A model generated the notes under the pieces. That model ran no database searches. It saw only the letters and a program-made list of their open reading frames with translations, and was not told the origin of the DNA. The translations under genes were made by a program, and so were the position numbers. From a virus (taxonomy: Duplodnaviria; Heunggongvirae; Uroviricota; Caudoviricetes): DNA of 64,000 bases. Position 1 is the stretch's first letter, and each line of letters starts with the position of its first letter. The stretch is taken from IMG/VR virus record IMGVR_UViG_643348549_000020. The stretch is one strand, 5' to 3'. Below are positions 1 to 25,110 of this stretch, in pieces.

Positions 1-99
1 TCACATCAGTGATACTCAGCGCATCTTTTGACGTTGAGGCCGATGCATCGGTCAGGCCAGGGGATTTTGGGGAGTAGTATTTCGGTAAATCTTCCAGTT

Positions 100-474
100 T
101 CATTTTTTGACCTGCCCTTCAAGCATTATGGGGTAAATCTTCACCCCCAGACGTCCACCAGATACTGGCTTTCCACGTACAATATTGATTTCATCAAACT
201 GCTCATCGTCCATTAACAACCCCGCGTGCGTCAGCGCATCCAGCGGTGCTTTCAGGATATTGTCCAGGTCGCGGCGGCGCTTATCCGGTGGCTCTGCAAT
301 AATTTTTATTGCCAGCCGTCCGGACAGGCTTAATTTCAGTCGCTGCTGGCGAACAATAAGCGCCACTGCCCGGCGATAACGCTTCCCGGCTTTTGATACA
401 AAATATGTGCTGCCACGGCGTCGCCAGTAAGTGTTCACCGTCGGCGGGTAAGGTAAAACCAAATCTATGAGCAT
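100..474 (-). CDS. rusA: Holliday junction resolvase RusA (prophage Nin region)
   Basis: 124-aa ORF, ATG start; RusA-family sequence with the conserved DLDN acidic motif; sits in the Nin-region position upstream of Q in lambdoid phages. Confidence 0.85.
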   Translation of the reverse strand: MLIDLVLPYPPTVNTYWRRRGSTYFVSKAGKRYRRAVALIVRQQRLKLSLSGRLAIKIIAEPPDKRRRDLDNILKAPLDALTHAGLLMDDEQFDEINIVRGKPVSGGRLGVKIYPIMLEGQVKK

Positions 475-486
475 CAGTCACCTCTT

Positions 487-1536
487 TTACCCGAGCACGC
501 CGGTTGCAAAGGCGTGATCAAGAAAACGAAAAATTAAATCAACCTGAGAACCATGCTTTTCTTCGAACGCCAGCGGATCCGCATGAAGCTCGTTGTGATG
601 CTCCCGACACAGCGGTAGCGTGAAAATATCGTGAGATTTTGTCCCCATTCCGCCCTGACCATGACCAATCAGGTGATGCGGATCGTCGGCTGGCTTACCA
701 CAACACGCACACGGCTGTGTCTTTACCCAGCGTGTGTATTTCTCATTTACCCAGCGGCGACGTTTAGGTCGTTTCATGAAGGATTCCGGAGACTCCGGAT
801 CAACGGCAATGCTGACCACCGTCTTTTCCTGTGGTGGGTTCTGTTGCTGGTGGGTGTGAGGCGGTAGCGCAATATTTTTTGTGCGCTGCTTCAGTATGCT
901 GGTGGCGGTCTGTTCTCCCGGTATGATGTCGCTTTCACGGTATACGGAGCGGATTTTTTCCGCCGGTAATCCCAGAGAACGACGCGCTACTGCCTCAGGT
1001 AGTGCATCCACCACCTGATTGCAGGCCGCCCACCAGGATAATTCAGCCAGAGATAATTCACGCTCCTGTGCGCCATTCATTGCGTGACGGATGATGTCAA
1101 TCATCCAGGCGGCCAGATTCTGTTGAGCAAGTTGATCCAGTGAATCAGATGTCTGCTCCCGCAGCTGGTTGTCGCAGTGCCAGCACAACACCATCGCGCC
1201 GGTACCGTAACGGTGAATGACGGTTTCGCTGTGATGATAATCACCGTGTAGCCACTGGCAGGATTTCACGTGACGTAATAACCAGTCAGACAGTGCACCA
1301 GCGCCACCCGCAGCACGGATCACCCGCTCATCGCTGAAAAATGGCAGTAGTGATTTATCTTCCGCCAGCGGCTGGTGAACGGCAGGTACAACCCCGGACG
1401 GCAGAGCTCGCATGCTTTTTGGTTCCGGCTCCACCAGTATTCTGCCGTTATGGAATGCTGACATTGATTCACGGCCTGGCTTAACGATAACCAGACCGAG
1501 TTCCGGTACCAGAACAGGTCGAAGTAATACCCGCAC
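487..1536 (-). CDS. DUF968-family prophage protein (YdfU-like), Cys/His-rich C-terminus
   Basis: 349-aa ORF with GTG start overlapping the upstream stop; C-terminal CxxC...HH motifs; same position as ydfU in Qin-type prophages. Confidence 0.55.
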   Translation of the reverse strand: MRVLLRPVLVPELGLVIVKPGRESMSAFHNGRILVEPEPKSMRALPSGVVPAVHQPLAEDKSLLPFFSDERVIRAAGGAGALSDWLLRHVKSCQWLHGDYHHSETVIHRYGTGAMVLCWHCDNQLREQTSDSLDQLAQQNLAAWMIDIIRHAMNGAQERELSLAELSWWAACNQVVDALPEAVARRSLGLPAEKIRSVYRESDIIPGEQTATSILKQRTKNIALPPHTHQQQNPPQEKTVVSIAVDPESPESFMKRPKRRRWVNEKYTRWVKTQPCACCGKPADDPHHLIGHGQGGMGTKSHDIFTLPLCREHHNELHADPLAFEEKHGSQVDLIFRFLDHAFATGVLG

Positions 1537-1537
1537 A

Positions 1538-1816
1538 TTACCTCCAGATCCGTTGCTGGAATGTGCGGGACGGACGCGGTGGCCGTTCGGAGTAAGGGGG
1601 CCTGACGGAGATTATCCAGTGACGGTAGTCGAGGCTAAGGGCTTTTTTAACCTCGCATCCGCGCCTGCGGTAACACTGAATGAGCCATTCGGCCTGTTCT
1701 TCAGTGCATGGGGGATGCTGGTACCAGTCAGATTTGAATGCGTGAAAACACCGTCCGCGCCTGCTGGCAAAGACGGCAGAATCATCAGAATTGTGTAGTC
1801 TGGAATTTTGCGCCAT
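1538..1816 (-). CDS. hypothetical prophage protein
   Basis: 92-aa ORF with ATG start, stop overlaps start of downstream gene; no recognised motif. Confidence 0.3.
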   Translation of the reverse strand: MAQNSRLHNSDDSAVFASRRGRCFHAFKSDWYQHPPCTEEQAEWLIQCYRRRGCEVKKALSLDYRHWIISVRPPYSERPPRPSRTFQQRIWR

Positions 1817-1885
1817 CGGCTTTCTCCGGTGGCACAGTGTTACTCAACAGGGGTTCAGCCCTGCGCTGAATTGTAGATGAATTCA

Positions 1886-2143
1886 CTAATCTTCAAAAGC
1901 AGAAAAACCAGCCTTAATCCCAGCTTCTTTCAGAGACGGCAACGATGTGACAAATTCATTTGCACGCAAAATAAAACCATCCGTCACAAGCCCATCCACA
2001 AAATGAATTAACGCAGCTCCACTCTTCCTTTGTTGAGACTGTAAACATTTAATACGGCAGTGGCTGACAATAGCGCCCTTCTCAACGCGCACAGTATAGA
2101 GGCCATCTTCACTAAAAATTTCACGTAATTCTTCGATTCTCAT
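1886..2143 (-). CDS. hypothetical prophage protein (Rem-like position next to hok)
   Basis: 85-aa ORF from internal ATG (track start is TTG); gene order matches rem-hok in Qin-type prophages. Confidence 0.35.
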   Translation of the reverse strand: MRIEELREIFSEDGLYTVRVEKGAIVSHCRIKCLQSQQRKSGAALIHFVDGLVTDGFILRANEFVTSLPSLKEAGIKAGFSAFED

Positions 2144-2363
2144 CAACAGAATCCTTCCAGATAAATAGCACTCCCCTGTTCGGGGTCCATCCCTCTTCTC
2201 CCTGCGCGCTACTTAAGTATTTTTGATTCTATTCCGGCGCCGTCCGGAACTTCAAACGCGTTGAAAATAAAAACAAAAACCCGCCGAAGCGGGTTAAGTG
2301 CGGGTGCGTTGAGGATGCCTGACACATCAGAGGTGGCGAGGGATTTCTCCCCCGCCTGGTCTC

Positions 2364-2519
2364 TTACTCCTCAGGTTCGTAAGCTGTGAAGACAGCGACC
2401 TCCGTCTGGCCGGTTCGGATTCGTACCTCGCAGAGGTCTTTCCTCGTTACCAGTGCCGTCACTATGACGGTTAAACAGATGACGATCAGGGCGATTAGCA
2501 TCGCCTTTTGCTGCTTCAT
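2364..2519 (-). CDS. hok: Hok/Gef-family small membrane toxin
   Basis: 51-aa product MKQQKAMLIALIVICLTVIVTALVTRKDLCEVRIRTGQTEVAVFTAYEPEE, essentially the HokD/RelF sequence as I recall it; single TM helix. Confidence 0.85.
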   Translation of the reverse strand: MKQQKAMLIALIVICLTVIVTALVTRKDLCEVRIRTGQTEVAVFTAYEPEE

Positions 2520-2576
2520 AGCCTGCTTCTCCTTGCCTTTCGGCACGTAAGAGGCTAACCTACGTGTGTAGAGCAT
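2364..2576 (-). CDS. mok: Mok-like N-terminally extended reading frame (translational coupler of hok)
   Basis: In-frame upstream ATG gives a 70-aa ORF with a 19-aa leader before the hok Met, as in mok/hok loci. Confidence 0.5.
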   Translation of the reverse strand: MLYTRRLASYVPKGKEKQAMKQQKAMLIALIVICLTVIVTALVTRKDLCEVRIRTGQTEVAVFTAYEPEE

Positions 2577-2984
2577 AGATATGGCCTCAGATTAATGTTA
2601 AGCGTCTTGCCGGACGCGTAATGTTAACTGGGGCTTTTCTCTATCTGCCGTTGGTGTTCATGCCCGAGGCAGATAGCCTCAAGCACCCGCAGCAATTCTA
2701 CTTAACTCTCGCTTTACCGCAAACCGTTTTTACCCGATATGGGAATTCCCATATCGTAATGAATTCAGTTCCCTAGTCGATCCATCAAAAACACAACCAG
2801 GCAGTAAACGCCCACAACAGCAATAACAGCCAGCGCACCTTCCATTGCCAGTGAAATATCATCCGACATATTCCCTCCTTTGGTGTGAATCCCGGCGAAC
2901 GTTTTTACCCCCACCGACAAATAACATATACTAAAAAATCAATAGCTATAGCAACGCCTGTAATTGCAAAGGCTTCAGGCCAGA

Positions 2985-3347
2985 TCATTGGCGCACCTCC
3001 TGCGGCGGTTCTGGTAGCGGCATCCAGTGTGACGGTTTCCACGACGCACCAGGAATTATCCACCCATCATTAGCGTCAGGATGCCCCGGGATGTAAGTAG
3101 CCAATTTCATTCGCCAGTCACCTTTCCTGTCAAACTCCACGGCAACAAGAACGGCTGTTTTGGTATTCGGCATTCGCTCACTACAGCTTATCCAACCATC
3201 CGGAGTTACCGGAGAATTGCCAGCCTTGCGCATGGCAATCTCCATGATTTCAACCATATCTCCTGGTGGAATTTTACAATGCTGACCAATATGCCTCTGC
3301 TGCCTGGCATATTCGAGGATGTGCTCCAGCTTGATACGATTAATCAT
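2985..3347 (-). CDS. DUF551-like prophage protein
   Basis: 120-aa ORF; first ~61 aa identical to the ORF at 61577-61939 in the second prophage. Confidence 0.55.
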   Translation of the reverse strand: MINRIKLEHILEYARQQRHIGQHCKIPPGDMVEIMEIAMRKAGNSPVTPDGWISCSERMPNTKTAVLVAVEFDRKGDWRMKLATYIPGHPDANDGWIIPGASWKPSHWMPLPEPPQEVRQ

Positions 3348-3715
3348 GATTTATCTCCCTGAAGCATGGCTTCGCGGCAGTCGTTCCAGCCTTCAGCATA
3401 ATCACTATACGCAAGAGGCCAACCGTTTCTGTATTCACGCGGCAACTTATCAGGCACTACCAGCGCTGGCGGCGCGGAGAATAGTGGTTTAGGTGATATT
3501 TCCGCACGTTTTGCGTATGCTTCAACTGTGTCAGGGTTAAACAGGATTATGTTTTCACCGCATTCCCACGCTATCGGTTCTGCTTCCAGCGATGCCAGTG
3601 CAATTTTGAATAACTCGCCCTCTACCCGTGCCATCCCTGAATTGGGGTAGCATTTCGCAATCGCTATTTTTAATTTGGCTTCTTCGATTAATTTCTCTTT
3701 GGTTAATTCAGTCAC
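3344..3715 (-). CDS. hypothetical prophage Nin-region protein
   Basis: 123-aa ORF (GTG start); C-terminal ~86 aa identical to ORF 61224-61580. Confidence 0.45.
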   Translation of the reverse strand: MTELTKEKLIEEAKLKIAIAKCYPNSGMARVEGELFKIALASLEAEPIAWECGENIILFNPDTVEAYAKRAEISPKPLFSAPPALVVPDKLPREYRNGWPLAYSDYAEGWNDCREAMLQGDKS

Positions 3716-3750
3716 TTTTCATTACCGCCCTTTCGGGCGGCCTCCTGACA

Positions 3751-3963
3751 TTAATCGTTGTGATAACTCATAGCTTCATTTGCAGCATCAACTGGATCAA
3801 CATCCCACCAGCAATAATTTGGGTCGACACCTTCAGGTGTCCACGGCTCTAATTCATTTTTTGCCGCATTCTCGTCGCCAGTAATTTTAAAAATCTGCTC
3901 TGAGAACTTTTTCACCCACTCGTTATATTTTTCAGCGTTAATAACTTTCTGTGCGTTTGACAT
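3751..3963 (-). CDS. hypothetical prophage protein
   Basis: 70-aa ORF, ATG start, co-directional with neighbours. Confidence 0.35.
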   Translation of the reverse strand: MSNAQKVINAEKYNEWVKKFSEQIFKITGDENAAKNELEPWTPEGVDPNYCWWDVDPVDAANEAMSYHND

Positions 3964-4011
3964 TGATATACCTCCGGTTAAGGATTAAATTTTTAACAGA
4001 GCTAAATTTAA

Positions 4012-4368
4012 TTATTCAGTTCTGGATTTTGTCACCCTGCGTATCCGCGCTTTCACGTTACGCTCAATCTGAATTAGCTTTTCTATATTTCTCCGCCTTT
4101 CCCGTTCCTCCTGGCGCAAGATCCTTACATCATCTGCCAGTCTGGTTTCTCTTTTCGCCACAGAGAGCATCCAGTCAAATGGCTCCACAACTGCACCGCA
4201 GATTTTACAGCGGACCTGACGCTCTTTTTCGTCAACCCGAACAGAGGCGTGATGACAATATGCTCTTTCCGATGGCTCATAAAGAAAATTAACCTGATTA
4301 CGTGGGTCATCCTCTTTTACCGGAAATAAAACGATATTGCTTAACTCATCTTCTGGTTTTATTTCCAT
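4012..4368 (-). CDS. hypothetical prophage protein with possible zinc-binding Cys/His cluster
   Basis: Start moved to internal ATG with AGGAG Shine-Dalgarno 7 nt upstream; CHH...CKICG motif. Confidence 0.4.
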   Translation of the reverse strand: MEIKPEDELSNIVLFPVKEDDPRNQVNFLYEPSERAYCHHASVRVDEKERQVRCKICGAVVEPFDWMLSVAKRETRLADDVRILRQEERERRRNIEKLIQIERNVKARIRRVTKSRTE

Positions 4369-4424
4369 GCTCTTCTCCTTTGATGTGAATGCCAGCGACA
4401 ATTGAAGCCTGATAGCTAATTCAC

Positions 4425-4820
4425 TCACAATACCGCCTCCTGAAAATTGCCCTGATAGAACGCCAGTACACGCAGCATAACTTCACTCTTCCGGCACTCG
4501 CCACAGATTATGTTCTGTTGTCTGTCGTAGCGGCGTATTTCTCCGTCTGGTAACTTTCGAATCAATGTCTGGTCGGTTGTTTTCTCCGCTGCCTTACGCC
4601 ATACGCGATACACCTGTTCTGATGTAAAAACACCGTATTTACCGGGCATGTATAAATCGCCGCAAGCCAGTACATCCACAAGGCAACGTCTGACTGAATG
4701 CCAGCCTGCTCCCGTCGCTCTCTCCAGTTGTGATATCGTCATGCGTTCATTTTTGCGTACCAGCCCGATAATTCGGGCCTTCAGTTCTTCACGCTGTTCG
4801 TGTGTAAAAGGTTTCGCCAT
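4425..4820 (-). CDS. hypothetical prophage protein
   Basis: 131-aa ORF from ATG with GGAGG Shine-Dalgarno (track start is TTG). Confidence 0.4.
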   Translation of the reverse strand: MAKPFTHEQREELKARIIGLVRKNERMTISQLERATGAGWHSVRRCLVDVLACGDLYMPGKYGVFTSEQVYRVWRKAAEKTTDQTLIRKLPDGEIRRYDRQQNIICGECRKSEVMLRVLAFYQGNFQEAVL

Positions 4821-4835
4821 AAGCGCCTCCGGCAA

Positions 4836-5606
4836 TCACTTTTCCGACACAATACGACCGGATGAATCGACAATCTGCCGAACAATATCCCGGTGCTTGT
4901 TCAGCTCCCGCAGCGCGGCGCAGACACGCTCCCACTTCTGAACCTGACCTTTTGCCCGGCGCAGCTCGCGGTTAGCCACATGCAGCGATGGTAAAATCAG
5001 ACCATCCGGATGTTTTCTGGTGAACAACGGCTGTGACTGCACTGTGACCGCCACACTTTCAGTTTTTATTTCTTCCTGTGTTTCCGCTTCCCGGACTGGT
5101 AACGCAACACCTGTTGGCTGAGGAAAGGCTTTACCATCGGTTTCCGTTACCGATGCAGCTTCCGGCTCTGCCGGTAAATCAGCGCCCGGTATGCAGTAAC
5201 GAAATTTACCGTTCTGATTTACGCGTGCCAGGCTCCCCGTTGCTGTTACGACCGCCAACGTGGAAGCAACCTTGCGAATGCTAACACCGAACTTATCCGC
5301 CAGTTCCTCACACGTTTTAGCCCCATCCTGACAGATAAACTCAATCATCATGTCCGCAGTAACTTTTTGTTCGACCTCCCCGGTCAGCACATCCGGTACT
5401 TCAGACTGTGCTGGCTGTTCTTCGGTTACCCCGGATTCACCTTCACCAGCCAGAAACCAGGTGTGACCCGTTTTATCAACAACGCCATTTTTTTTGAGTT
5501 CCCACAGTTCGTTGAGAACTTCTTCACGGCTGATATCAAGCCGCGCCGCCAGTTCAACAGAATTGGCTTTACCCATCGCTTTCAGTGCATGCAATACGGT
5601 TCCCAT
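4836..5606 (-). CDS. hypothetical prophage protein with N-terminal winged-helix-like region
   Basis: Start moved to internal ATG with GGAGG Shine-Dalgarno 8 nt upstream; 256 aa. Confidence 0.45.
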
Positions 5607-5640
5607 TAAAATTTCCTCCGGATAAAAATTACTTCTCAAA

Positions 5641-6306
5641 TCAGACAAAACCAGCCGCTTTCCGGCGTTCATACTCCTGTTTCAGCAACTCAATTGGCGT
5701 TGGTCCCAACGGGCGTTTTGGTGCCGCCAGTTGTCGCCGTACTGGCGGAACGCTCAGGCCGTTACTAACATGCTTTGCCCATTTCGTCAGCTGCCGTTCT
5801 GCAAGCCGTTTTAATTCCCCTTCGGTCATCTGGCGTTCAATCCCCTTTGAACGCATCTCGAGGCAAATGTGATACAGCACAGGCTGAGGCCACGGATATT
5901 TGTCGCTTCCGTTATATCGCCAGGACTCATTACGCCAGCGGCGATACTCCTCCATCACAGCATCCACCGTCAGGCCAAATGGATTGGCCCCGCTTTCCGA
6001 AATCAGCGCCACAAACTCAGCCAGGTCCGGAGGCCATGTTTCACCCGCCCGGCAGCGGTCCATGCACTGGCGGCAGACCTGCCGGATTTGCTGCTCAGTC
6101 ATCGCGCCAATCTGTGCAATCCAGAGCTTCGAAGGTGCGGCCCCGTTCTTCTGGGTCCAGCGGTTCGAATAAACCTCCCCCATGAGTTCCCACAGCTTCC
6201 AGGCCGTTTCCGTCGCTGATAAATCCGTTTTCACGTTCCCACTGCTCACGTGCTGCCCGAATTTCCTGAACTGCCCGTGATGCGGTGCCACCTGGTGCTG
6301 CTGCAT
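5641..6306 (-). CDS. replication protein P-like (helicase loader family)
   Basis: 221-aa ORF with strong AAGGGGG Shine-Dalgarno; blocks resembling lambda P; start uncertain because it overlaps the upstream gene by ~210 nt. Confidence 0.5.
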
Positions 6307-7135
6307 GGTTTACCCCCTTGCTGACTGGTTTAACCTGCGCCCTGACGTGATTTACGTGACGGGCGAATTTCTGCTCCCACTGAATCTGCGTAAACACTTT
6401 CCCCTCCGCTGCCCAGTAGTCCCGGAATGCGGTAAGTTCAGCAGGTGTAAATTCTGTCTCCGGCAAAGCCATCCCCCACAACGCAGCCCGTCGTCGAAAA
6501 TCCCGTGACGGATACCAGCTATCGGTCATCGGAAATTTTCCGATGGGTTCGCTCAGGCCATCCAGGAATACATGGGGGGCTGCCTGTAACGACAAAACTT
6601 CCTGCTCACTGGTCGGAGCACTCTCGCGTGCGTTATGTGTGGGGTTTAGATCTTTGGGTTCCTTTGGGTTCCGTGATCCGTTTTTGGGTGTCTTTGATGG
6701 AAAATTTGGGTGTCTTTGGTTATTTTCCATGCAACAAAGAGTTCCGTTTTTGGGGCTCTTTTGTGCTGAAACATAACCGTTTTCGGTACTGTTTTTATTA
6801 ACAGCACCAATTTTACCCACCTTTAAAGACACCCGTTTTTGGGTGTATTCAGGCTCGGCAACACTTTCTTCTACACCGATAAGTCGGTACACCACAATTT
6901 GCTTTGTTCTGCCTTTTCTCTCACCGGTATCAACAATTAACCCAATCTCCATCAGGTGTCGTAAGCTGTCCTGCACAGTCTTTTTGTTCAGTTCCGTTAC
7001 TTCTGCCAGTGCAGATACAGACGGGTATGCACACAAATCGGCACCGCACATATCAGCAAGCCAGGTCAATACAGACTTACTGGATGAACTGCCGGTTTTC
7101 ACCTTTTTAGCCCATCGTAGTGCATCGATACTCAT
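6095..7135 (-). CDS. replication initiator (N-terminal winged-helix O-like domain, C-terminal DnaT-like region)
   Basis: Start at internal ATG (MSIDALRW...) with Shine-Dalgarno; iteron-like repeats lie inside the gene as in lambda O/ori. Confidence 0.55.
   Translation of the reverse strand: MSIDALRWAKKVKTGSSSSKSVLTWLADMCGADLCAYPSVSALAEVTELNKKTVQDSLRHLMEIGLIVDTGERKGRTKQIVVYRLIGVEESVAEPEYTQKRVSLKVGKIGAVNKNSTENGYVSAQKSPKNGTLCCMENNQRHPNFPSKTPKNGSRNPKEPKDLNPTHNARESAPTSEQEVLSLQAAPHVFLDGLSEPIGKFPMTDSWYPSRDFRRRAALWGMALPETEFTPAELTAFRDYWAAEGKVFTQIQWEQKFARHVNHVRAQVKPVSKGVNHAAAPGGTASRAVQEIRAAREQWERENGFISDGNGLEAVGTHGGGLFEPLDPEERGRTFEALDCTDWRDD
6640..6850. repeat. iteron-like direct/inverted repeats (GGGTGTCTTT core), putative replication origin
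   Basis: GGGTGTCTTT at 6686-6695 and 6708-6717, inverted copy at 6825-6834, related TTTGGGT copies nearby, inside the initiator gene. Confidence 0.45.
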
Positions 7136-7658
7136 ACGAACCCCTGGCAGATATTTGTTTATCTGCAAAGTAATATTGATACTGCTGACGATACGCATGC
7201 TTGAAAGCAATAGCTTTTTCTATAAGCTCGTCAGTCTCACGTTCCACAACAGCTGGATCCGCAAAAAGCAGCCCGGACTCCACCACATCGCCATATTCTT
7301 TGTTTAATCCGGCGATCATGTACGTAATGCTTTTTCCATCACTGATCTCACGATACAACCTGAAATCACTAATTCGGATAGCCTCCATAATTGCCGGAAT
7401 CAGCGCCGTGAATTTTTCCCGCTTATCCCTGGTGTCGATAGCTTTCCAGCGTTCGAATATCTTCACCCGGTTAACGCCCAGCGCCCGTTGATCAACCTCG
7501 CCATCATTAAACGTGACGCGTTGAACATCGATGTTCGGGCGTTCTTTCAGAGCCCAGAATGCTTCCGTGATTAATATCGTCGCCTGCTCCTGTGTCATTC
7601 CTGGTCGACATACCCAGGCATCCAGAGCCTCACAAACCTGTTCAGGGGTGATTTTCAT
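7107..7658 (-). CDS. early regulatory protein in the CII/YdaT position (function uncertain)
   Basis: 183-aa ORF with ATG start immediately downstream of the Cro-like gene. Confidence 0.4.
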   Translation of the reverse strand: MKITPEQVCEALDAWVCRPGMTQEQATILITEAFWALKERPNIDVQRVTFNDGEVDQRALGVNRVKIFERWKAIDTRDKREKFTALIPAIMEAIRISDFRLYREISDGKSITYMIAGLNKEYGDVVESGLLFADPAVVERETDELIEKAIAFKHAYRQQYQYYFADKQISARGSYEYRCTTMG

Positions 7659-7869
7659 TGTTCAACCGCCCCGCCCGCTTTGCCTTACGATATTCGTCAT
7701 AAACTTTGGGGTCGTACTGAAGTTCCCCGCCGGATGCCTCTTGCAGGCGCATCGCGCGACCTTCAGGAACCAGTTCCCCCCATTGAGAAACAGCAGATGG
7801 ATCAACACCAGCAGCTTTCGCTACTTTGGCTTTCGTCCCATAAAAATTAATTACGTCTGATTTAAACAT
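7642..7869 (-). CDS. Cro/DicC-like DNA-binding protein
   Basis: 75-aa ORF from ATG with GGAGG Shine-Dalgarno; divergent from the DicA-like repressor; HTH-like sequence. Confidence 0.65.
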   Translation of the reverse strand: MFKSDVINFYGTKAKVAKAAGVDPSAVSQWGELVPEGRAMRLQEASGGELQYDPKVYDEYRKAKRAGRLNNENHP

Positions 7870-7946
7870 CACCCCTCCAAAGTTGAGTTTTCTCAATAGT
7901 AATCACTCAAGGAATCTCAAGTCAAGGGTGATTAAGATATCTAAAT
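7870..7946. promoter_or_regulatory. divergent immunity-region promoter/operator between cro-like and repressor genes
   Basis: 77-bp AT-rich intergenic region between divergently oriented regulator genes; by analogy with dicA/dicC. Confidence 0.4.
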
Positions 7947-8354
7947 ATGAACGAGAAAACTTTAGGTCAACGAATTAGAGAAAGACGCAAACAGGTTGGT
8001 TTAAGTCAAAACGATTTAAGCAAAGCCGCTGGCGTATCTGGCTCATCAATTTCACTATGGGAAAGCGACCATACAGCCCCGCGCGGGCAAAATTTGCATC
8101 GCCTGGCTGAGGTATTGCAATGTTCACCAACTTGGATACTGTTTGGTGACGAGGATAAAACACCAGATCCACCAGTTGCACTCAACAGCGCCTTAGACTT
8201 ATCGGAAGATGAGTTGGAGATGTTGCGATTGTATCGCGCACTTCCAAAATCAGAGCAGCAAGCACAAATCAGCGAACTCCGTGCCCGCGTTGAGAATTTT
8301 AATCGCCTATTCACCGAGCTACTAGAAGCTCGCAAACGTAACAAACATCAGTAA
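7947..8354 (+). CDS. dicA: DicA-like XRE-family repressor
   Basis: 135 aa; N-terminal HTH; C-terminal LQCSPTWILFGDEDK block matches DicA as I recall it. Confidence 0.8.
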   Translation: MNEKTLGQRIRERRKQVGLSQNDLSKAAGVSGSSISLWESDHTAPRGQNLHRLAEVLQCSPTWILFGDEDKTPDPPVALNSALDLSEDELEMLRLYRALPKSEQQAQISELRARVENFNRLFTELLEARKRNKHQ

Positions 8355-8543
8355 CCCCCTTCACAAATTTTAAAGCCTTACATTTCAATGTATTGGCTTT
8401 ATTTTGCATTAAATATTGAGTTTTCTCATTAAAAATACTTGACCAACATTCATGAGAAAACTAAATTACCACCCATCAAGACACCGCACGGTGTTCTCAG
8501 CAAACAGTTCCGCTACCCGGCGTTAAGGGGAAATGAGGTCAGC

Positions 8544-8699
8544 ATGGATACTATCGATCTTGGCAACAGCGAATCTCTGGTATGTGGCGTGTTCCCCAAC
8601 CAGGACGGCACGTTCACCGCGATGACGTATACCAAAAGCAAAACGTTTAAAACCGAAAATGGTGCCCGTCGCTGGCTGGAAAGAAACTCAGGTGAGTGA
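8544..8699 (+). CDS. ydfA: YdfA-like small protein (DUF1391)
   Basis: 51 aa from ATG with GAGG Shine-Dalgarno; first gene after the dicA-like repressor. Confidence 0.55.
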   Translation: MDTIDLGNSESLVCGVFPNQDGTFTAMTYTKSKTFKTENGARRWLERNSGE

Positions 8700-8700
8700 T

Positions 8701-8829
8701 ATGGATTTCGACACAATCATGGAAAAGGCTTATGAAGAATACTTCGAAGGTCTTGCCGACGGCGAAGAAGCTCTCAGCTTCAACGAATTTAAACAGGCGC
8801 TTTCCAGCTCGGCAAAATCTAACGGCTGA
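8701..8829 (+). CDS. ydfB: YdfB-like small protein
   Basis: 42-aa ORF MDFDTIMEKAYEEYFEGLADGEEALSFNEFKQALSSSAKSNG starting 1 nt after the ydfA stop; below the ORF-track size cut-off, found by manual translation. Confidence 0.5.
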   Translation: MDFDTIMEKAYEEYFEGLADGEEALSFNEFKQALSSSAKSNG

Positions 8830-8858
8830 TAAGCGAAACAGCACCGCGAGGAATCAGT

Positions 8859-9077
8859 ATGCAGAAACGAGAACCCGTCATCATCGCACCAGACTATACC
8901 GATGATGAACTTTATGAGTGGATGCGCCAGAAAATTAATGCAGCGCAGGATCTGAAATGGGCCAATGAAGCCAGGGCTAAGCAGGCTGAAAAACTGTCCG
9001 CTCTGGAGCAGGATATCACCAATCTGGAAAAAGCAGCGGCATTAAGCATTGCCAGAATGATTACATACCCGCGTTAA
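8859..9077 (+). CDS. ydfC: YdfC-like protein
   Basis: 72-aa ORF with GAGGA Shine-Dalgarno; operon position matches ydfC. Confidence 0.5.
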   Translation: MQKREPVIIAPDYTDDELYEWMRQKINAAQDLKWANEARAKQAEKLSALEQDITNLEKAAALSIARMITYPR

Positions 9078-9417
9078 TAGCTAACCAACGAAGCTAAGGT
9101 TGGTAATTAAGTAGTTCTCCACGGGTGAGGTGGAGTGCGTGCGCCGGACGCGGGTGAGCATCCGGCACTGACAGTTTACTGAAAGGATATTTCCCTGAAA
9201 AGTCAGACCATAACGCGAAAGCGCACGGCGAGGTAGCTGGTTCATAGATAGCCTGTCGTTAAATTTTCGTCGACCGTGCGCTTCCGGTTGTGGCAACCCG
9301 CGAAATGGTGCGGCGGTAAGTATGGCGGGGTTATTTCTTCCCCGTTGAGGACACCGGGTTGTCAGGTTGACCATACGCTTAAGTGACAACCCCGCTGCAA
9401 CGCCTTCTGTTATCAAT

Positions 9418-9475
9418 TTTCTGGTGACGTTTGGCGGTATCAGTTTTACTCCGTGACTGCTCTGCCGCCCTTTTT
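9418..9475 (+). ncRNA. dicF: DicF antisense sRNA (targets ftsZ and other mRNAs)
   Basis: TTTCTGGTGACGTTTGGCGGTATCAGTTTTACTCCGTGACTGCTCTGCCGCCCTTTTT matches DicF as I remember it, ending in a GC stem plus T-run, between ydfC and dicB. Confidence 0.6.
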
Positions 9476-9642
9476 AAAGTGAATTTTGTGATGTGGTGAA
9501 TGCGGCTGAGCGCACGCGGAACAGTTAAAGCTAAAAACAGCGTTATGGGTGATTCTGTATTCCGGCGTTAATTGTTAACTGGTTAACGTCACCTGGAGGC
9601 ACCAGGCACCACATCACAAAATTCATTGTTGAGGACGCGATA

Positions 9643-19036: not shown

Positions 19037-22000
19037 TCAGCTGATACTGATGCCTGCGGTGGCTTTCTTCATCACCACAACCAGCAAATCGCTGATACTT
19101 GCTGTGGGATACCAGTTATTCACCAGCCATGCTGATACCGAAAACTCCAGCGTCATGTGACCGTGACCGGCAGGCATATCAATAACGCCACTGTAAATCA
19201 GCGTATTATCCAGCGCGGTACGGTTATAAATTTCAGCACCGTTTTTCCGCACTATCAGACGGCATGAGGAGTAAATATCAGTATGCTCTCTCTCATGCTT
19301 AGCGCCACTGAATGCCACCGCCGGAATAACAATCTGCCGGTCAAACGGCTGATCGTCATAAACCCTGACGGTAATGGTCCCTGATGGCCACCGCTCCGGT
19401 GCCCGGGAGTCCCGCGGAAAAGCCTTACCCACTGTTTTGACTATATCGCCTTCAATCTGGTTGGCTGACAGTTTCCCCTTAATCTGACAGTTCTCATTAA
19501 TTGTGACATTGTTGAGCGTCCCGGCGTTCGCATTCACACTGCCACTGATATCTGCATTTTTAGCGGTCAGCTTTCCGTCCGGTGTCAGGGAAAATGCCGG
19601 AGGATTACCGCCGCTGGTAATGGTGGGAGCCGTCAGGCGTTTCAGGAACACGTCGTTCATGAATATCTGATCGCCCTGACCAACAAACATCGGCTTTGTG
19701 TTGCCATTCGCAGGATTAATCATCGCAATCCTGTCTGCCGCCAGCAGCACCTGACTCTGCATTCCTGCTGGCGTATTCTCAATACCGGCACCGATACCCG
19801 CAATATAAAGGCGTCCGTCCTTCATCTGTTGCAGCTTCACAGCCCACATGCTGTTCAGATTATTATTTGTATCAACCTGAACCTTCTGTATCTGCTGGAT
19901 CGCTGCACTCTGGTCTTCCAGTTTCTTATTGACGGTCTGCGTGATTTCATTACTGACATCCGTGATGGACGTTCTGATTTCCGCCAGGTCAGGCGCAAGC
20001 TGACCGTTATCAATCTGAGTCCACAACTCCTGAGCCAGATGGGTTTTCCCTATCTCTCCTTTGAAAAAATCCAGATAGCCGGATGCATCATCACTCGGCT
20101 GGCCAACAGCCTCCACAAATGCCGATTTGCCAACGGTGTTCACACTGCGGATATAAAAGTAATAATCATGGCCCGGTTTGATATTGATACTGGCGGCTAT
20201 CCAGTACAGCCCCGTGCCAAGGTAGCGGGCTGTGGTTTCAACCTGCCTGATATCGGTAATCCGCGTTTCCGAAAACCAGAACTCAAACTGTACCGTCGGG
20301 TCATACACCGCAAGACGCGGGACCGCTGTTATCTGAAAATAGCCCGGTGTCAGCTCAATCTGTGACGGCGCTGCCGGTGCGGCAATCCGGAACGATACCG
20401 ACGCCGGATCGCCCTGCTGCCCCCACGCATTTACCGCCCGGACTGTCAGCCTGTAGTTCCCCGGCGCCAGTTGCGTGAAGCGGTATGTGGTTTCCGTCGT
20501 CCGGGCCGTGCTGACCAGCCGCTCACTGCCGTCATCCGCGACCACGGTCAGGCGAAGCATAAAGCTCACGCCCTTCACCACCTTCGGCGTGTCCCATTTC
20601 GCCTGCGCCAGATACTGACCGTCAGCTGCGCTCACCTCCACCGTCAGGTGCTGCACTGCCGGAGGGATGACGCTGTTCAGGGTGCCTGACTGCGGCTCAA
20701 AGCTGGCCCCGTTATCCACGATGGCTTCCTTTTCCGGTACGTGCTGCACCGCCGTGATGGCAAAGGTGCCGTCCGTGTTTTCCCGGATGGAGACACAGCG
20801 GAACAGGCGACGACGCAGTGACGGCAGGGAGAGTCCCCATACACCGTATGTCTCCACACCATCAGGCAGGGTGCTGACCTGTATCCGGTCCGGCGCGGGG
20901 TGTGCAGTGATGGCCACGCTCACCGGCTTACCGCTGCCGTTAATCAGGTTCACCGTGGCGGCACCTGTCTCCGGCAGGGTCACCTCACGGTCCAGTGTCA
21001 GGGTGCGGCTGGCGGCATCGATGGACAGGATACGTCCGCCGGTCATGGTCCCGGCATAGTCGTTATCACAGATTTCAATAATGTCACCGGGTGTGTGACG
21101 CAGCCCCTGTGACCCGAGCGTGAAATCCACCGTCTGCGTTTCCAGCAGTCCGGTCTTTATCACCCACAGCCCGGCACGGTGGGCCTGACCGCGACTGGTG
21201 CAACCGAACGCATCCATCTTCAGCAGGTTGCGCCCGTAGCGCAGTATGGCTTCCGGGTCTTCCACCAGTTCCGTGGAGGTCTGCCAGCCGTTCTGCGGGT
21301 CGGTGTAATTCACCTCCACCGCCGTGTGGCGGTCCTTCAGGGCGCTGAAGCTGTAGCGAAACCCCACGCCGTTATCATCCACCACCACATCGCTGCTGGT
21401 GTACGGCCACACCACATCCGACGGACGGTCCTGAACGAACGTCAGCGTCTGGCCGTTCCATACCGGCATACAGCGCATCGCCGAGCAGAAATCACTGAGA
21501 ACGTCCCACGCCTTACGCTGTTGTGACAGGTACGCATTAAAGGTCATCCGCGGCTCTGTGCCCCCGAAACCATCCGGGACCGTCTGGTCGCAGTACTGCC
21601 CGATGGCATACAGCGCCCACTTGTCAACATCCGCCGCCACCAGACGTTTTCCCATGCCGTAGCGCGGGTGAGTCAGCATGTCCCACAGGCACCAGGCCGG
21701 GTTGTTGCTGTATGCCGGTTTCAGGCTGCCGTCCCAGATGCCGCTGTACGTGCGTTTTTCCGGGTCATAGTTTGACGGTACCTGGATGATGCGACCGCGG
21801 ATATGGTAGTTCACCGTCATCTGCTGACCGCCAAACTGCTCCGCATCCACCTGCAGCCCCACAATCGCCGTGTTCGGGTAGCACTGTTTCACATCGATGA
21901 TTTCGGTGTATGACGACCAGAGCGTCTTATTCTGCAGCTGGTCCGTGGTGCTGTCCGCCGTCTCCCGGACCATCCGGATGTTAAAGGGCCGCTCAGGCAG

Positions 22001-22513
22001 ATTCTCCAGAATCACCGACGCCAGGTACTGTGAGGTGGTCTTGCCGTTAATGGTGACATCCTTTTCCGTCACCCAGTTACCGTTACGCTGCAACTGAATC
22101 AGCAGTCGGACAGAAGAGGGATTACGGTCGCCCTTTGAGGTGGTCTCCAACAGTGACTGCACCCCGAAGGTGACCCGCAGGCGGTCAATGTTCGCGGACG
22201 TAATGGTGCGCGTCACCGGCTTTGCTTTCGTCACTTCCACGCCCAGTGCGGTTTCCGCCCCGGAGGACTCAAAGCCTTCAGGTGGTGTCTGCTCCTGCTC
22301 CCCGGCGCGCCAGACCGCTGTCACACCATGTATCACAGGATTACCGTCCGTGTCCGTCAGCGGGGTTTTGTTCACCAGGATACTCTGCAGCCCCTTCACC
22401 GGACCTTCAATCGGCCCTTCACCAATGGCGTCAATCACGCTCATCATCTGCGTGGACTTAAGATTGTCCTTTGCCTCTACCGGCGTGTGCCCCTTGCCGC
22501 CCCCTTTACCCAC
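19037..22513 (-). CDS. J: tail tip host-specificity protein J
   Basis: About 1158 aa; strong similarity throughout to lambda gpJ ([20 protein letters not shown]... N-terminus); start set at GTG 22513 with GGAG Shine-Dalgarno. Confidence 0.9.
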
Positions 22514-22753
22514 TCTGTCCCCCTCTCCTGTCTGATGTCTGAATCTGTTTATGCCAGAAAACAACAGGCACCCCGGAGGGTGCCTGTGTCATGACGGAAT
22601 AAAATTTCTGAAACTCTTCACATTTCCGGCAATTGCCTGTAGCCGCAATAATGACGCTGCGTTACTTTTTTGATGCCTGAAAAATAACTCCATAACGTTA
22701 ATCTTCATCGTTCTCTCCCGCAGCTCCGCTAACTCTGCGGGATTTTTTTATTT

Positions 22754-23431
22754 TCATCCCCGCCCGATAACCACCACTTTCCCGTCTCCGCCCTCATCAC
22801 GGGTACTGATGTCCTGGGAGATTCGCCGGGAGCCAACCAGCATTTCACCGTAAGGCACCGGCATCGGGTTCCCCTGAGCAATCATGTTATCCAGCGAGGA
22901 AAAGTACGTGTTCTGTCTGCCGTTATCCGTTGCGCGGTAATCCGGTGTTTTTGCCTTCGGGGCCAGCATCTGGGCCACACCGCCCAGAATCATGCTGGCT
23001 CCAAGTGAAAACAGCATCGTGGTGGCAGAAAAACCACCGGCTGCCAGGGCTGAACCCCATAACGCCATTGATGCCCCGGCAGTGAAGAAAGAGCCCACGA
23101 TGGCTGCCGCCCCCAGCACAATCTGCAGTCCACCCTTTCCGGCCCCGGCCAGTCGCGGCACAATGTGGATGACCGTTCCCTCACCCAGCTGTTCGTGAAG
23201 ACGGGCGTACACCGCCTCCGGTGCCGTGTCCTCACCGCGAATACGTATCTGGTACCAGCCTTCGTTCATCTGACGGCGGAATCTCGGCATCTGCAGCGAC
23301 AGGGCACGGATGGCTTCCGCTGCCGTGTTCACGTACAGGCTGAGGCGGCGGCCAAATCGTTGCAAATCCCCGTGAAGGCAGATGCGTGCCAGTGGCGGTG
23401 ACGCCAGACAGAATGCGTTCGTCGTTGCCAT
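22754..23431 (-). CDS. I: tail assembly protein I
   Basis: 225-aa ORF in lambda gene order upstream of J; hydrophobic Gly/Ala-rich middle segment. Confidence 0.8.
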   Translation of the reverse strand: MATTNAFCLASPPLARICLHGDLQRFGRRLSLYVNTAAEAIRALSLQMPRFRRQMNEGWYQIRIRGEDTAPEAVYARLHEQLGEGTVIHIVPRLAGAGKGGLQIVLGAAAIVGSFFTAGASMALWGSALAAGGFSATTMLFSLGASMILGGVAQMLAPKAKTPDYRATDNGRQNTYFSSLDNMIAQGNPMPVPYGEMLVGSRRISQDISTRDEGGDGKVVVIGRG

Positions 23432-24072
23432 TTTTCAGAATACCTCTCCCGTTTACTCAGTTGTTCAGGCAGATGGTGAAGCAGTTCACCGTTGCCGCAG
23501 TATATGGCGGCATGATTGGCCACCGATGCGCCAAAGCAGCACAGCAGGATATCGCCCGCCTGTGCAGAGGACAGGGGCACCCGGTAAAAACCAGTCGCCG
23601 CCATATTGTCCAGGTAAAGGTTCTGACCGTTGCGCCACCAGTCATCCTCACGCACAAAATCCGGCAGCGTTATCCCCGCCAGATGGTATGCATCCCGGAA
23701 CAGGGTGTAACAGTCCGTCACCCCGTGCTCAAAACGACGCCCGGTCAGGTGCGGCACACAGCGGAATTTGTGAATTTCCCCCCGGCAGACCAGCCACCAG
23801 GGCAGGGCACTCTTTATCTGCAGCCGCCGGTCGGCCTCGCTCAGCCAGGGCAGACCACCAGGGTGGCTGTGAACCAGCGCCACAATCTCCCCCTGCATCT
23901 CTGCCTGCAGCCAGTCTTCCGGCGCAATACGAAAATACGCCTCCGGCTCTGCGGAGATATTCACGCAGGGCTGGTACCGTTCGCCCTCCGGGGTGCCTAT
24001 CACGAAGCCGCACGACTCCGCAGGCGCACACCGCCGGGCATGCACCAGAATCGCTGATTCAGTCTGTGTCAT
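23329..24072 (-). CDS. K: tail assembly protein K (JAB/MPN + NlpC/P60-like)
   Basis: Start set at ATG 24072 (MTQTESAIL...); HSHP motif typical of gpK-like JAB domain. Confidence 0.8.
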   Translation of the reverse strand: MTQTESAILVHARRCAPAESCGFVIGTPEGERYQPCVNISAEPEAYFRIAPEDWLQAEMQGEIVALVHSHPGGLPWLSEADRRLQIKSALPWWLVCRGEIHKFRCVPHLTGRRFEHGVTDCYTLFRDAYHLAGITLPDFVREDDWWRNGQNLYLDNMAATGFYRVPLSSAQAGDILLCCFGASVANHAAIYCGNGELLHHLPEQLSKRERYSEKWQRRTHSVWRHRHWHASAFTGICNDLAAASACT

Positions 24073-24082
24073 AAAACAGGAT

Positions 24083-24781
24083 TTACTGCGAAAGTTTATT
24101 GATGGAAAGGAAACCGCCAAAATTAGCCACCATGCCGCGCATCTCACACCCGCGCATGCACTTGCTGCATCTGTCCTTACGGATATCCGTGGTGGGGTTG
24201 TCGAACTCATCCGCCACCGCAGGACCGTTATACCCGCATTCATCTCCCCGGTAATCCCACATACAGGTGTTCGCCAGCATGATGCGACCAGGAAACAGCG
24301 CCCCGTCCGTCTCCGTCGGTGTTGCCAGCACAAACGAGGCCGTCATGGCCGTCAGCTCTGACATCTGCTCCACCACCCACCGGTCAGTCAGCTCCTGCTC
24401 CGGGTCGGCCTCCGGATTGCCTGCCACAAAGTTCACCGCATCCAGAAAACGCGCATACACCCGGCGGCGGACCACCGTGGCACCCACCAGGCTCTGCAAA
24501 TCCTCCGCCATCCCGGTGACAAGACCGAACAGATTGGACACCGTCAGCGACGGGCGGGCACTGCTGCCCTTTCCGTTCATCTCAAAGCCGCTGCCCTCAA
24601 TCGGGTACGCCTGATATTCACGCCCCTGCCAGGTCACCGGCACCCCTTTTTCATTCAGCTCATTGCAGAAAAAATACCGCTCACCGCCCTGCGCCGTCAG
24701 GTCGATTTCCCAGAGTACCACCCGCGGTGACTGCTCTGATTTAACCGACTCGTTCAGACTTTCTTCGTGAATATCCTGCAT
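24083..24781 (-). CDS. L: minor tail protein L
   Basis: 232 aa; lambda gpL-like with C-terminal Cys cluster; gene order M-L-K-I. Confidence 0.85.
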   Translation of the reverse strand: MQDIHEESLNESVKSEQSPRVVLWEIDLTAQGGERYFFCNELNEKGVPVTWQGREYQAYPIEGSGFEMNGKGSSARPSLTVSNLFGLVTGMAEDLQSLVGATVVRRRVYARFLDAVNFVAGNPEADPEQELTDRWVVEQMSELTAMTASFVLATPTETDGALFPGRIMLANTCMWDYRGDECGYNGPAVADEFDNPTTDIRKDRCSKCMRGCEMRGMVANFGGFLSINKLSQ

Positions 24782-25110
24782 CAGTTCACCACCTGCTTAA
24801 ACTCCGCGCTGAACTCAACGCGCAACATCCCGACCCGCGCAGACCACCCGGCACAGGTCACCTTTATCTGCCGGTATGCATAGGGTGGCTTCCACAAAAA
24901 TGCCTTCCAGCCTCCGTGCTCTGCCAGGAACGCTTCCAGATGCCGGGCCTCCTCCCGGGTCACGGAAAGCGTCACACGGTATGTTTTCAGGTCAGCATTC
25001 AGCCCTGCCGCCATACGCTGTGAGTACCCGTCACCAAAACGCACTTCACGCACCGACGGCTGCGAGTTCACCTCCATATCCGGCTTCACTTTCCAGCGAA
25101 AGGTTTTCAT
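24781..25110 (-). CDS. M: minor tail protein M
   Basis: 109-aa ORF in the gpM position. Confidence 0.85.
   Translation of the reverse strand: MKTFRWKVKPDMEVNSQPSVREVRFGDGYSQRMAAGLNADLKTYRVTLSVTREEARHLEAFLAEHGGWKAFLWKPPYAYRQIKVTCAGWSARVGMLRVEFSAEFKQVVN

What the first reader, a model, noticed from the sequence alone, without database searches (positions are those of the whole stretch)
3165..3605. About 440-bp near-identical inverted repeat shared by the two prophages, about 58 kb apart
The region 3165-3605 (minus-strand genes) is, by my manual comparison, identical in translation and at spot-checked DNA positions to 61320-61760 (plus-strand genes) in reverse complement. The identity spans the 3' part of one hypothetical gene and the first ~61 codons of the DUF551 gene. 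Inverted repeats of this length are RecA substrates and could invert the intervening ~58 kb, or they reflect recent module exchange between the prophages.
Basis: seen in the sequence. Interest (0 to 1): 0.5.

Follow-up and report, generated by a model that had tools for sequence, protein, structure and literature searches.

The report
Shared gene block in two prophages
The 441-bp inverted repeat is real, but it is an ordinary shared piece of two small phage genes that lambda-like prophages of E. coli O157:H7 swap among themselves, and there is no sign that it has flipped the DNA between its copies.

Summary
Observation confirmed. Window 3166-3606 equals the reverse complement of 61318-61758: 441 bp, one synonymous mismatch, razor-sharp edges, unrelated flanks.

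The block is plain coding DNA. It holds the last 87 codons of a small ORF (phrog_5117) and the first 61 codons of a translationally coupled DUF551 gene.

The window is E. coli O157:H7. Copy 1 lies in the pR/nin operon of an ompW-type lambdoid prophage (P1). Copy 2 lies in the pL (ea22-xis-int) operon of the mlrA/yehV prophage (P2). That is why the copies are inverted.

The same block, with the same edges, occurs in 364 of 5,426 complete E. coli genomes and in VT1-Sakai, YYZ-2008 and Stx2c phages. All four combinations of left and right flank variants exist, so recombination across the block has occurred in the phage population.

Neither recombinant junction between these two prophages was found in any genome, so inversion remains only a possibility.

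The 58-kb spacing is unusual. In TW14359-like genomes the copies are direct repeats 1.19 Mb apart. Here, and in strain TR01 only, a circularly permuted P1 copy sits inside P2 with exactly reciprocal hybrid junctions. That indicates homologous insertion of an excised P1 circle, or an assembly product.

Ordinary lambdoid mosaicism; low interest.

The parts
3166..3606 (-). Copy 1 of the 441-bp block, in the pR/nin operon of the nested ompW-type prophage P1'
   Evidence: alignment; annotation: between replication gene P and antiterminator Q
61318..61758 (+). Copy 2 of the 441-bp block, in the pL operon (ea22 ... xis-int) of the mlrA/yehV prophage P2
   Evidence: (annotation)
3344..3715 (-). Small ORF, 123 aa (phrog_5117, no Pfam). 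The last 87 codons are in the block. The first 36 codons are the divergent 'N1' variant.
2985..3347 (-). DUF551 gene, 120 aa, 'core1' variant. It has a 4-bp ATGA overlap with the upstream ORF. Codons 1-61 are in the block. The Pfam DUF551 domain covers aa 51-116.
61224..61580 (+). Small ORF, 118 aa (phrog_5117), 'N2' variant. The last 87 codons are in the block.
61577..61939 (+). DUF551 gene, 120 aa, 'core2' variant. Codons 1-61 are in the block.
2972..3029 (-). Weaker conserved patch (84% to 61898-61955) at the 3' end of the DUF551 genes (motif HWMPLPEPPQEV). It bounds the variable core on the other side.
61898..61955 (+). Partner of the 84% patch at the 3' end of DUF551 copy 2
1..42917 (.). 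Circularly permuted copy of the ompW-type lambdoid prophage P1. Its early arm (1-14269) and late arm (14018-42917) are joined through the att region.
   Evidence: near-identity to TW14359 1735996-1750264 and 1752770-1781670
14018..14269 (.). 252-bp overlap holding the ompW' fragment and att core. The sequence switches from attL-side to attR-side at about 14111-14143, giving an attP-type junction.
39631..42917 (-). Homology shared by P1 and P2 (holin, DUF826, DUF1378, DUF6645; about 98%). This is the zone of the P1/P2 crossover.
41506..41524 (.). Crossover interval. 28 P1-type SNPs lie to its left and 39 P2-type SNPs to its right. TR01's left junction shows the reciprocal switch in the same interval.
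39631..64000 (.). mlrA/yehV prophage P2 (Q2, nin region, IS1203-disrupted P, cI, pL operon, int 62714-64000)

Best explanation
The repeat is a shared mosaic segment of a two-gene accessory cassette carried by many lambdoid, Stx-type prophages. The cassette is a small phrog_5117 ORF translationally coupled to a DUF551 gene. Both prophages in the window carry the whole cassette. Only its central 441 bp is near-identical. The 5' end of the first gene and the core of the DUF551 domain are divergent alleles. The block is inverted because the cassette sits in oppositely transcribed operons: pR/nin in P1 and pL/ea in P2. Homologous recombination across this block, by host RecA or by phage Red/RecET-type recombinases, has reassorted the flanking variants in the phage population. 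That part is shown by the existence of all four flank combinations. In this genome the block is a passive, short potential recombination substrate, and no inversion product is seen. The copies are only 58 kb apart because a second copy of P1 is nested inside P2. An excised circular P1 genome, joined at attP, recombined once with P2 in their shared DUF6645/lysis homology. The topology and the reciprocal junctions are shown; the circle intermediate is inferred.
For: Block, edges and synonymous mismatch. Coding nature: DUF551 Pfam hit (79 and 69 bits against a cut-off of 22) and PHROG hits spanning both ORFs; 53 of 97 variable sites among homologues fall at third codon positions. Operon positions. 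Distribution: the full block is in 364 of 5,426 genomes and part of it in 2,583, with nearly all hits ending at block position 438-441. It is also in VT1-Sakai, YYZ-2008, Stx2c phages 1717/2851 and Stx2a_WGPS phages. Recurrent breakpoints at block coordinates 0, 210-229, 380-389, 430-449 and the gene end appear in 80 IMG/VR loci. Four-gamete evidence: P1 = N1-R-core1; P2 = N2-R-core2; the 2013C-3342 yjjG prophage = N1 (100%)-R-core2 (97.2%); the F8798 Stx2c prophage = N2 (98.9%)-R-core1 (99.4%). Nested arrangement: tiling against TW14359; att switch; a single P1-to-P2 switch at 41506-41524, with the exactly reciprocal P2-to-P1 switch at TR01's left junction over 67 informative sites. The window differs from the TW14359 parental prophages by only about 7 bases outside the att and crossover zones. 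TR01 also keeps an intact P1 at ompW. Only TR01 shares the arrangement.
Against: No recombinant between these two particular prophages was observed, so recombination at the block is inferred from population haplotypes and not seen in this lineage. The four flank combinations could in principle arise from exchanges at the block edges, by illegitimate recombination followed by selection, instead of within the block. The IMG/VR sample was chosen by similarity to DUF551 core2, which inflates the count of P1-query matches ending at about 440. The nested P1 copy rests on two assemblies (the window and TR01) whose independence I could not establish. Its near-identity to the parental prophages is also what a mis-join of reads from induced circular phage DNA would give.
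Confidence: 0.82

Rival explanations
1. Recent intragenomic gene conversion. Co-resident prophages P1 and P2 exchanged a 441-bp tract in this lineage, which homogenised an otherwise diverged cassette.
For: Only one mismatch in 441 bp, while the cassette ends are highly diverged. The prophages co-reside and encode recombinases: bet/exo in P2 and a RecE-like exonuclease in P1.
Against: The identity is not lineage-specific. Copy 2 is 100% identical to VT1-Sakai and YYZ-2008. The copy 1 context N1+R is 100%/99.8% identical in a yjjG prophage of the unrelated strain 2013C-3342. The same edges recur in many phages. So the block pre-dates the co-residence of these two prophages.
Confidence: 0.08
2. 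The block is real, but the 58-kb inverted juxtaposition is an assembly artefact. Reads from excised or replicating P1 circles were mis-joined into P2 through the 3.3-kb shared homology. In the true chromosome the copies would be direct repeats about 1.2 Mb apart.
For: Only 1 of 5,426 complete genomes (TR01) shows the arrangement. The nested copy is almost base-identical to the ompW copy of TW14359. TR01 carries frameshifted genes that suggest uncorrected long-read errors.
Against: Both junction copies of the homology are clean reciprocal hybrids that switch in the same 18-bp interval. Longer SNP-free stretches were available (up to 427 bp between informative sites), where an assembler would more plausibly switch. 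The window and TR01 differ at clustered sites, so they are not the same assembly, yet they share the structure.
Confidence: 0.15
3. Programmed invertible segment. The inverted repeats are recombination sites for a site-specific invertase that flips the intervening DNA as a switch.
For: The orientation is inverted. A serine-recombinase-family gene (ybcK) lies within the intervening DNA.
Against: The repeats are 441 bp of ordinary coding sequence, not short crossover sites. The copies are direct repeats 1.19 Mb apart in most genomes. No flipped junction exists in any of 5,426 genomes. ybcK is about 12-44 kb from either copy.
Confidence: 0.01
4. The block is conserved because it holds a cis-acting element or small RNA and not because of its recombination history.
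For: DNA identity of 96-100% for the last 56 bp of the block in more than 2,000 genomes.
Against: No Rfam family matches in or near the block. Folding z-scores are -1.0 and -0.6 on the two strands. No promoter-like or terminator-like site lies in the block. Substitutions among homologues are enriched at third codon positions, as expected for protein-coding constraint.
Confidence: 0.02

Closest known systems
Mosaic modules of lambdoid phages (modular theory of Botstein and Susskind; HK97/HK022/HK620 comparisons; relaxed homologous recombination by Rad52-like recombinases, De Paepe et al. 2014, PMC3945230)
   Same: A near-identical segment has abrupt transitions to unrelated sequence. The edges recur in many phages. 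The flanks reassort. The edges lie at or near gene and domain boundaries.
   Different: Nothing essential differs. Here both edges are intragenic, and the same cassette sits in the nin region of one phage and the ea region of the other.
exo-xis / ea region accessory genes of lambda and Stx phages (mosaic Ea22 variants, one carrying DUF551; PMC10834534)
   Same: Copy 2 lies directly downstream of an ead/Ea22-like gene in the pL operon. DUF551 behaves as a portable domain attached to different N-terminal parts.
   Different: Here DUF551 is a separate 120-aa ORF with its own about 50-aa leader and is not fused to Ea22. Copy 1 is in the pR/nin operon.
Prophage-mediated large chromosomal rearrangements in E. 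coli O157:H7 (Fitzgerald et al. 2021, PMC8743559)
   Same: Inverted homologous prophage sequence in an O157:H7 chromosome is in principle a substrate for RecA-dependent inversion.
   Different: The documented rearrangements map to repeats of at least 5 kb at 98% identity or more, placed either side of Ter. This repeat is 441 bp, the copies are 58 kb apart on one side, and no rearranged junction was found.
Prophages integrating into prophages (Nakamura et al. 2021, PMC8112680)
   Same: A second prophage, related to ompW prophages, is nested in a resident prophage at mlrA. The result is a duplicated prophage in one chromosome.
   Different: In that paper the guest is flanked by att sites (site-specific integration into an attB carried by the host prophage). 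Here the guest's int and tail ends are joined to each other internally, and the guest/host junctions are reciprocal hybrids in 3.3 kb of shared homology. This is homologous (Campbell-type) insertion, as in classical lambda dilysogens formed by recombination with a resident prophage (own knowledge).

Membership tests
Lambdoid-phage mosaic module | High-identity segment with abrupt transitions to unrelated flanks | tested here: met
   441 bp at 99.8% identity; flanks at random-level identity
Lambdoid-phage mosaic module | The same segment with the same edges in independent phages and prophages | tested here: met
   Full block in 364 of 5,426 genomes and 15 phage records. Hit ends pile up at block position 438-441 and hit starts at 0
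Lambdoid-phage mosaic module | Flanking modules reassort across the segment | tested here: met
   All four N-variant by core-variant combinations were found
DUF551 (PF04448) proteins | Score above the Pfam gathering threshold | tested here: met
   79.1 and 68.8 bits against a cut-off of 22; domain at aa 51-116/117
Site-specific invertible segment (Hin/Gin/Cin type) | Short inverted crossover sites that flank the segment, with an adjacent invertase | tested here: not met
   The repeats are 441 bp of coding sequence. The nearest recombinase-family gene (ybcK) is more than 12 kb away
Site-specific invertible segment (Hin/Gin/Cin type) | Both orientations observed among related genomes | tested here: not met
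   No genome covers at least 80% of either recombinant junction. Power is limited because only TR01 shares the arrangement.
O157:H7 prophage repeats that drive large chromosomal rearrangements | Repeat of at least 5 kb at 98% identity or more (criterion used in PMC8743559) | tested here: not met
   441 bp (for the criterion)
O157:H7 prophage repeats that drive large chromosomal rearrangements | Structural variants with boundaries at the repeat | tested here: not met
Site-specific prophage-in-prophage integration (Nakamura 2021) | Guest prophage bounded by attL/attR at its int and tail ends | tested here: not met
   The int1 and tail ends are joined to each other at 14018-14269. The guest/host junctions lie in the DUF6645 homology
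Campbell-type homologous insertion of a circular phage genome (cointegrate) | Insert is a circular permutation of the phage with an internal attP-type junction | tested here: met
Campbell-type homologous insertion of a circular phage genome (cointegrate) | Insert flanked by direct copies of the shared homology that are reciprocal hybrids with one common switch point | tested here: met
   Window and TR01 right junction switch 1->2, and TR01 left junction switches 2->1, all between 41506 and 41524. The left junction lies outside the window and was seen only in TR01.
Campbell-type homologous insertion of a circular phage genome (cointegrate) | The structure exists in single DNA molecules and is not an assembly product | not testable with these tools
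   Needs raw long reads, optical maps or PCR

The most novel reading that the evidence does not exclude
The nested P1 copy is a real, heritable cointegrate made by homologous insertion of an excised prophage circle into a different resident prophage. This route to prophage duplication is distinct from the att-mediated prophage-in-prophage route. It would leave the chromosome with a 45-kb near-perfect inverted pair (ompW copy versus nested copy, about 1.2 Mb apart) and a set of short inverted and direct blocks such as this one, priming Ter-flanking inversions. Separately, the DUF551 cassette, with a conserved leader and C-terminal patch bracketing a highly variable core, might be a recombination-shuffled diversification cassette for a host-interaction protein.
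Probability: 0.2. Interest if true: 0.4.

Novelty: already known. Interest (0 to 1): 0.13.

Why it matters
The finding matters little in itself. Short near-identical blocks shared by co-resident lambdoid prophages are the expected signature of phage mosaicism in E. coli O157:H7, and this block is already present in published Stx phage genomes. It is a clean example of an intragenic mosaic junction with all four flank combinations documented. The context is of more practical interest. The window shows a prophage copy nested in another prophage by homologous recombination. If that is real, it duplicates 45 kb of prophage DNA and creates much larger recombination substrates than the 441-bp block. 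If it is an artefact, it is a caution for prophage-rich assemblies.

Tried and rejected
Recombinant-junction search: synthetic chimeras up1-R-down2 and up2-R-down1 gave no full-length match in 5,426 genomes. This rejects any observed inversion or deletion through the block, but power for the 58-kb inversion is limited to TR01.

Structured RNA or cis element in the block: no Rfam hit, folding z-scores of -1.0 and -0.6, and no promoter or terminator. Rejected.

Solved structures for the two proteins: no PDB sequence relative at E <= 1. I ran no further search on them, because protein function does not bear on the repeat question.

Chi sites: one Chi on the minus strand at 3805, about 200 bp from the block. 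It is oriented to stimulate exchange away from the block, and there are 12 Chi in the window overall. Judged irrelevant.

Simple 1.2-Mb inversion between P1 and P2 as the origin of the arrangement: rejected. It would place chromosomal yciE/trp DNA, not int1, next to the P1 late arm, and TR01 keeps P1 at ompW.

Site-specific integration of P1 into an att site in P2: rejected, because the junctions lie in homology and the att junction is internal.

Identity of the source strain: the window is nearly identical to TW14359-type prophages and I suspected EC4115, but I could not verify this. A literature search for a described duplication found nothing specific.

Full report
**1. The observation**

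BLASTN of the first and last 12 kb of the window, and of the window against itself, gives one strong inverted match. It is 3166-3606 against 61758-61318: 441 bp, 99.77% identity, no gaps.

The one mismatch is 3216 A versus 61708 G (as reverse complement). It is a synonymous AAT/AAC change in Asn44 of the DUF551 ORF. In the ungapped register, identity falls to random level immediately outside both edges.

A second patch of 58 bp at 84% (2972-3029 versus 61955-61898) covers the 3' ends of the two DUF551 genes. In five shuffles of the window the longest exact inverted match was 16-20 bp, so chance is excluded.

**2. What is encoded**

The block covers the last 87 codons of a small ORF: 123 aa at 3344-3715(-) and 118 aa at 61224-61580(+). 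It also covers the first 60-61 codons of a 120-aa ORF that overlaps the small ORF by ATGA: 2985-3347(-) and 61577-61939(+).

The second ORF is a DUF551 protein (PF04448, 79 and 69 bits against a cut-off of 22, domain at aa 51-116). The first ORF has no Pfam family, but both versions match phrog_5117 end to end.

So the whole two-gene cassette is homologous in the two prophages. Only its centre is near-identical. The first 31-36 codons of the small ORF (variants N1 and N2) are divergent alleles. So is the DUF551 core between the motifs SERMPN and HWMPLPEPP (variants core1 and core2).

Several results show ordinary protein-coding DNA:
- Among homologues in 80 viral contigs, 53 of 97 variable sites in the block are third codon positions.
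- No Rfam family matches in the block.
- Folding z-scores are -1.0 and -0.6.
- There is no promoter-like or terminator-like site.
- Neither protein has a sequence relative in the PDB.

**3. Where the window comes from, and why the copies are inverted**

The window is E. coli O157:H7. I placed the genes using RefSeq annotation of the matching regions of strains TR01 and TW14359.

Copy 1 lies in an ompW-type lambdoid prophage (P1). It sits on the pR transcript between replication gene P and antiterminator Q. The order is cro, ydaT, O-like, P, DUF1627, DUF977, three small ORFs, DUF551, hokD, DUF968, rusA, Q.

Copy 2 lies in the prophage integrated at mlrA/yehV (P2). It sits on the pL transcript. 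The order is gam, bet, exo, ..., ea22, small ORFs, DUF551, DUF4222, xis, int.

The same cassette in oppositely transcribed operons explains the inverted orientation.

**4. Why the copies are 58 kb apart**

In TW14359, SS17 and others, the two contexts are 1.19 Mb apart and both cassettes are on the same strand. They are therefore direct repeats there. Only one of 5,426 complete genomes, TR01, carries the left 25 kb of the window contiguously.

Tiling against TW14359 resolves the window into three parts:

| Window | TW14359 equivalent |
|---|---|
| 1-14269 | reverse complement of the P1 early arm (1735996-1750264) |
| 14018-42917 | reverse complement of the P1 late arm (1752770-1781670) |
| 39631-64000 | P2 (2915609-2939981) |

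The two P1 arms overlap by 252 bp that contain the ompW' fragment. The sequence switches from attL-side to attR-side at about 14111-14143. This is an attP-type junction.

In the 3.3-kb P1/P2 homology (holin to DUF6645), 67 informative sites show a single switch from P1-type to P2-type between 41506 and 41524.

In TR01 the other junction, which lies left of the window, switches from P2-type to P1-type in exactly the same interval. TR01 also keeps an intact P1 at ompW.

An internal attP junction plus two reciprocal hybrid copies of the homology is the signature of one crossover between an excised circular P1 genome and resident P2.

This is not the att-mediated prophage-in-prophage integration described by Nakamura et al. 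(PMC8112680), in which the guest would be bounded by att sites. It is also not a 1.2-Mb inversion, which would put yciE/trp DNA next to the P1 late arm.

Outside the att and crossover zones the window differs from the TW14359 parental prophages by about seven bases in 53 kb. So the event is very recent, or the structure is an assembly product of induced phage DNA. I put the artefact at about 0.15, for two reasons. The switch sits in an 18-bp interval although SNP-free stretches of up to 427 bp were available. And the window and TR01 are different assemblies (clustered differences) that share the structure.

**5. The block in the wider population**

The full block occurs in 364 of 5,426 genomes and parts of it in 2,583. 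Nearly all partial hits end at block position 438-441, right after the SERMPN motif.

It is present at 99.8-100% identity in VT1-Sakai, YYZ-2008, Stx2c phages 1717 and 2851, and Stx2a_WGPS phages.

In 80 IMG/VR loci found with the DUF551 protein, high-identity match starts cluster at block coordinates 0, 210-229 and 380-389. Match ends cluster at 430-449 and at the gene end. This sample is biased toward core2.

Synthetic recombinant junctions (N1 context-R-core2 context, and the reciprocal) have no full-length match in any genome. They did reveal gene-level chimeras:
- A yjjG prophage of strain 2013C-3342 has N1 (100%)-R-core2 (97.2%), in a pL/ea22 operon.
- The Stx2c prophage at sbcB of strain F8798 has N2 (98.9%)-R-core1 (99.4%).

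With P1 (N1-R-core1) and P2 (N2-R-core2), all four combinations exist. This requires at least one exchange within the block or at its edges.

**6. Mechanism and its limits**

Shown:
- The block is a recurrent mosaic segment.
- Flank variants have reassorted across it.
- Its identity is not specific to this genome.

Inferred: the exchanges were homologous recombination using the block as the shared sequence, by RecA or by phage recombinases. P2 carries bet/exo and P1 a RecE-like exonuclease. Relaxed recombination by such enzymes is documented in PMC3945230.

A 441-bp repeat is long enough for RecA-dependent exchange (own knowledge of homology-length dependence in E. coli). Inversion of the 57.7 kb is therefore possible. 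It would leave both genes in frame and would swap the downstream parts of the pR1 and pL2 operons.

There is no evidence that this has happened. The absence of recombinant junctions has real power only for TR01. In ordinary genomes the copies are direct repeats, and exchange would delete 1.19 Mb.

Documented O157:H7 rearrangements map to prophage repeats of at least 5 kb at 98% or more (PMC8743559). Such repeats surround this locus:
- The late regions of P1' and P2 are about 20.5 kb at 97%.
- The DUF6645 homology flanks the nested copy as direct repeats.
- In TR01 the nested copy and the ompW copy of P1 form a 45-kb inverted pair.

These would dominate recombination.

**7. Verdict**

The feature is a textbook lambdoid mosaic block that is already present in published phage genomes. 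Novelty is 'already known' and interest is low.

The most novel reading still open is that the nested prophage is a genuine homologous cointegrate that duplicates a prophage and seeds large inverted repeats.

Noticed in passing
window 1-42917, with junctions at 14018-14269 and 41506-41524: A circularly permuted copy of the ompW-type prophage is nested inside the mlrA/yehV prophage. It has an internal attP-type junction and a clean single crossover in the DUF6645 gene. Only strain TR01 among 5,426 complete genomes shares this, and TR01 shows the exactly reciprocal left junction.
   Followed up: yes
window 2364-2688 (-): A hokD toxin ORF with a sok antitoxin RNA (Rfam RF01794, 111.7 bits) lies about 300 bp downstream of the P1 DUF551 gene.
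   Followed up: no
window 9419-9470 (+) and the dicB ORF nearby: DicF antisense sRNA (RF00039) and dicB lie in the P1 pL region, giving a Qin/Kim-like division-inhibition operon in this prophage.
   Followed up: no
window 42625-42879: The sRNAs AgvB (anti-GcvB, + strand, 96.5 bits) and STnc100 (- strand, 160.7 bits) lie back to back between the DUF6645 gene and the tRNA cluster downstream of Q2.
   Followed up: no
window 43165-43240 (-): ARAGORN calls this tRNA as Met (CAT anticodon). RefSeq annotates the identical gene in TR01 and TW14359 as tRNA-Ile, which is the usual ileZ-type ambiguity of CAT anticodons in Stx-phage tRNA clusters.
   Followed up: partly
window about 50620-51840 (ALIL pseudoknot at 50902-51018): An IS1203/IS629-type element splits the replication gene P of the mlrA prophage, so P2 is probably replication-defective on its own.
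   Followed up: partly
window 46000-50000 and 54000-56000: There are two low-GC islands (0.37-0.39) inside P2. The first holds ybcK (a serine recombinase family gene), ybcL, ybcM and emrE. The second holds a 353-aa hypothetical gene plus an ASCH-domain gene next to the repressor. These are possibly cargo or defence genes.
   Followed up: no
window about 14150-16650: The P1 tail-end exchangeable locus holds a DUF4376 remnant, a transposase remnant, an OspG/NleH-family effector kinase and an IS1. Most window-versus-TR01 differences (83 of about 170) fall at 15-17 kb, around the IS1.
   Followed up: partly
block coordinates 386-441 (window 61703-61758 and 3166-3221): The last 56 bp of the block encode ...PDGWISCSERMPN. 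They are 96-100% identical at DNA level in DUF551 genes of more than 2,000 E. coli genomes with otherwise different leaders and cores. This marks a very general breakpoint inside the DUF551 domain.
   Followed up: partly
whole window: Chi sites are strongly strand-biased: 10 on the minus strand and 2 on the plus strand. One minus-strand Chi lies at 3805, about 200 bp from copy 1.
   Followed up: no
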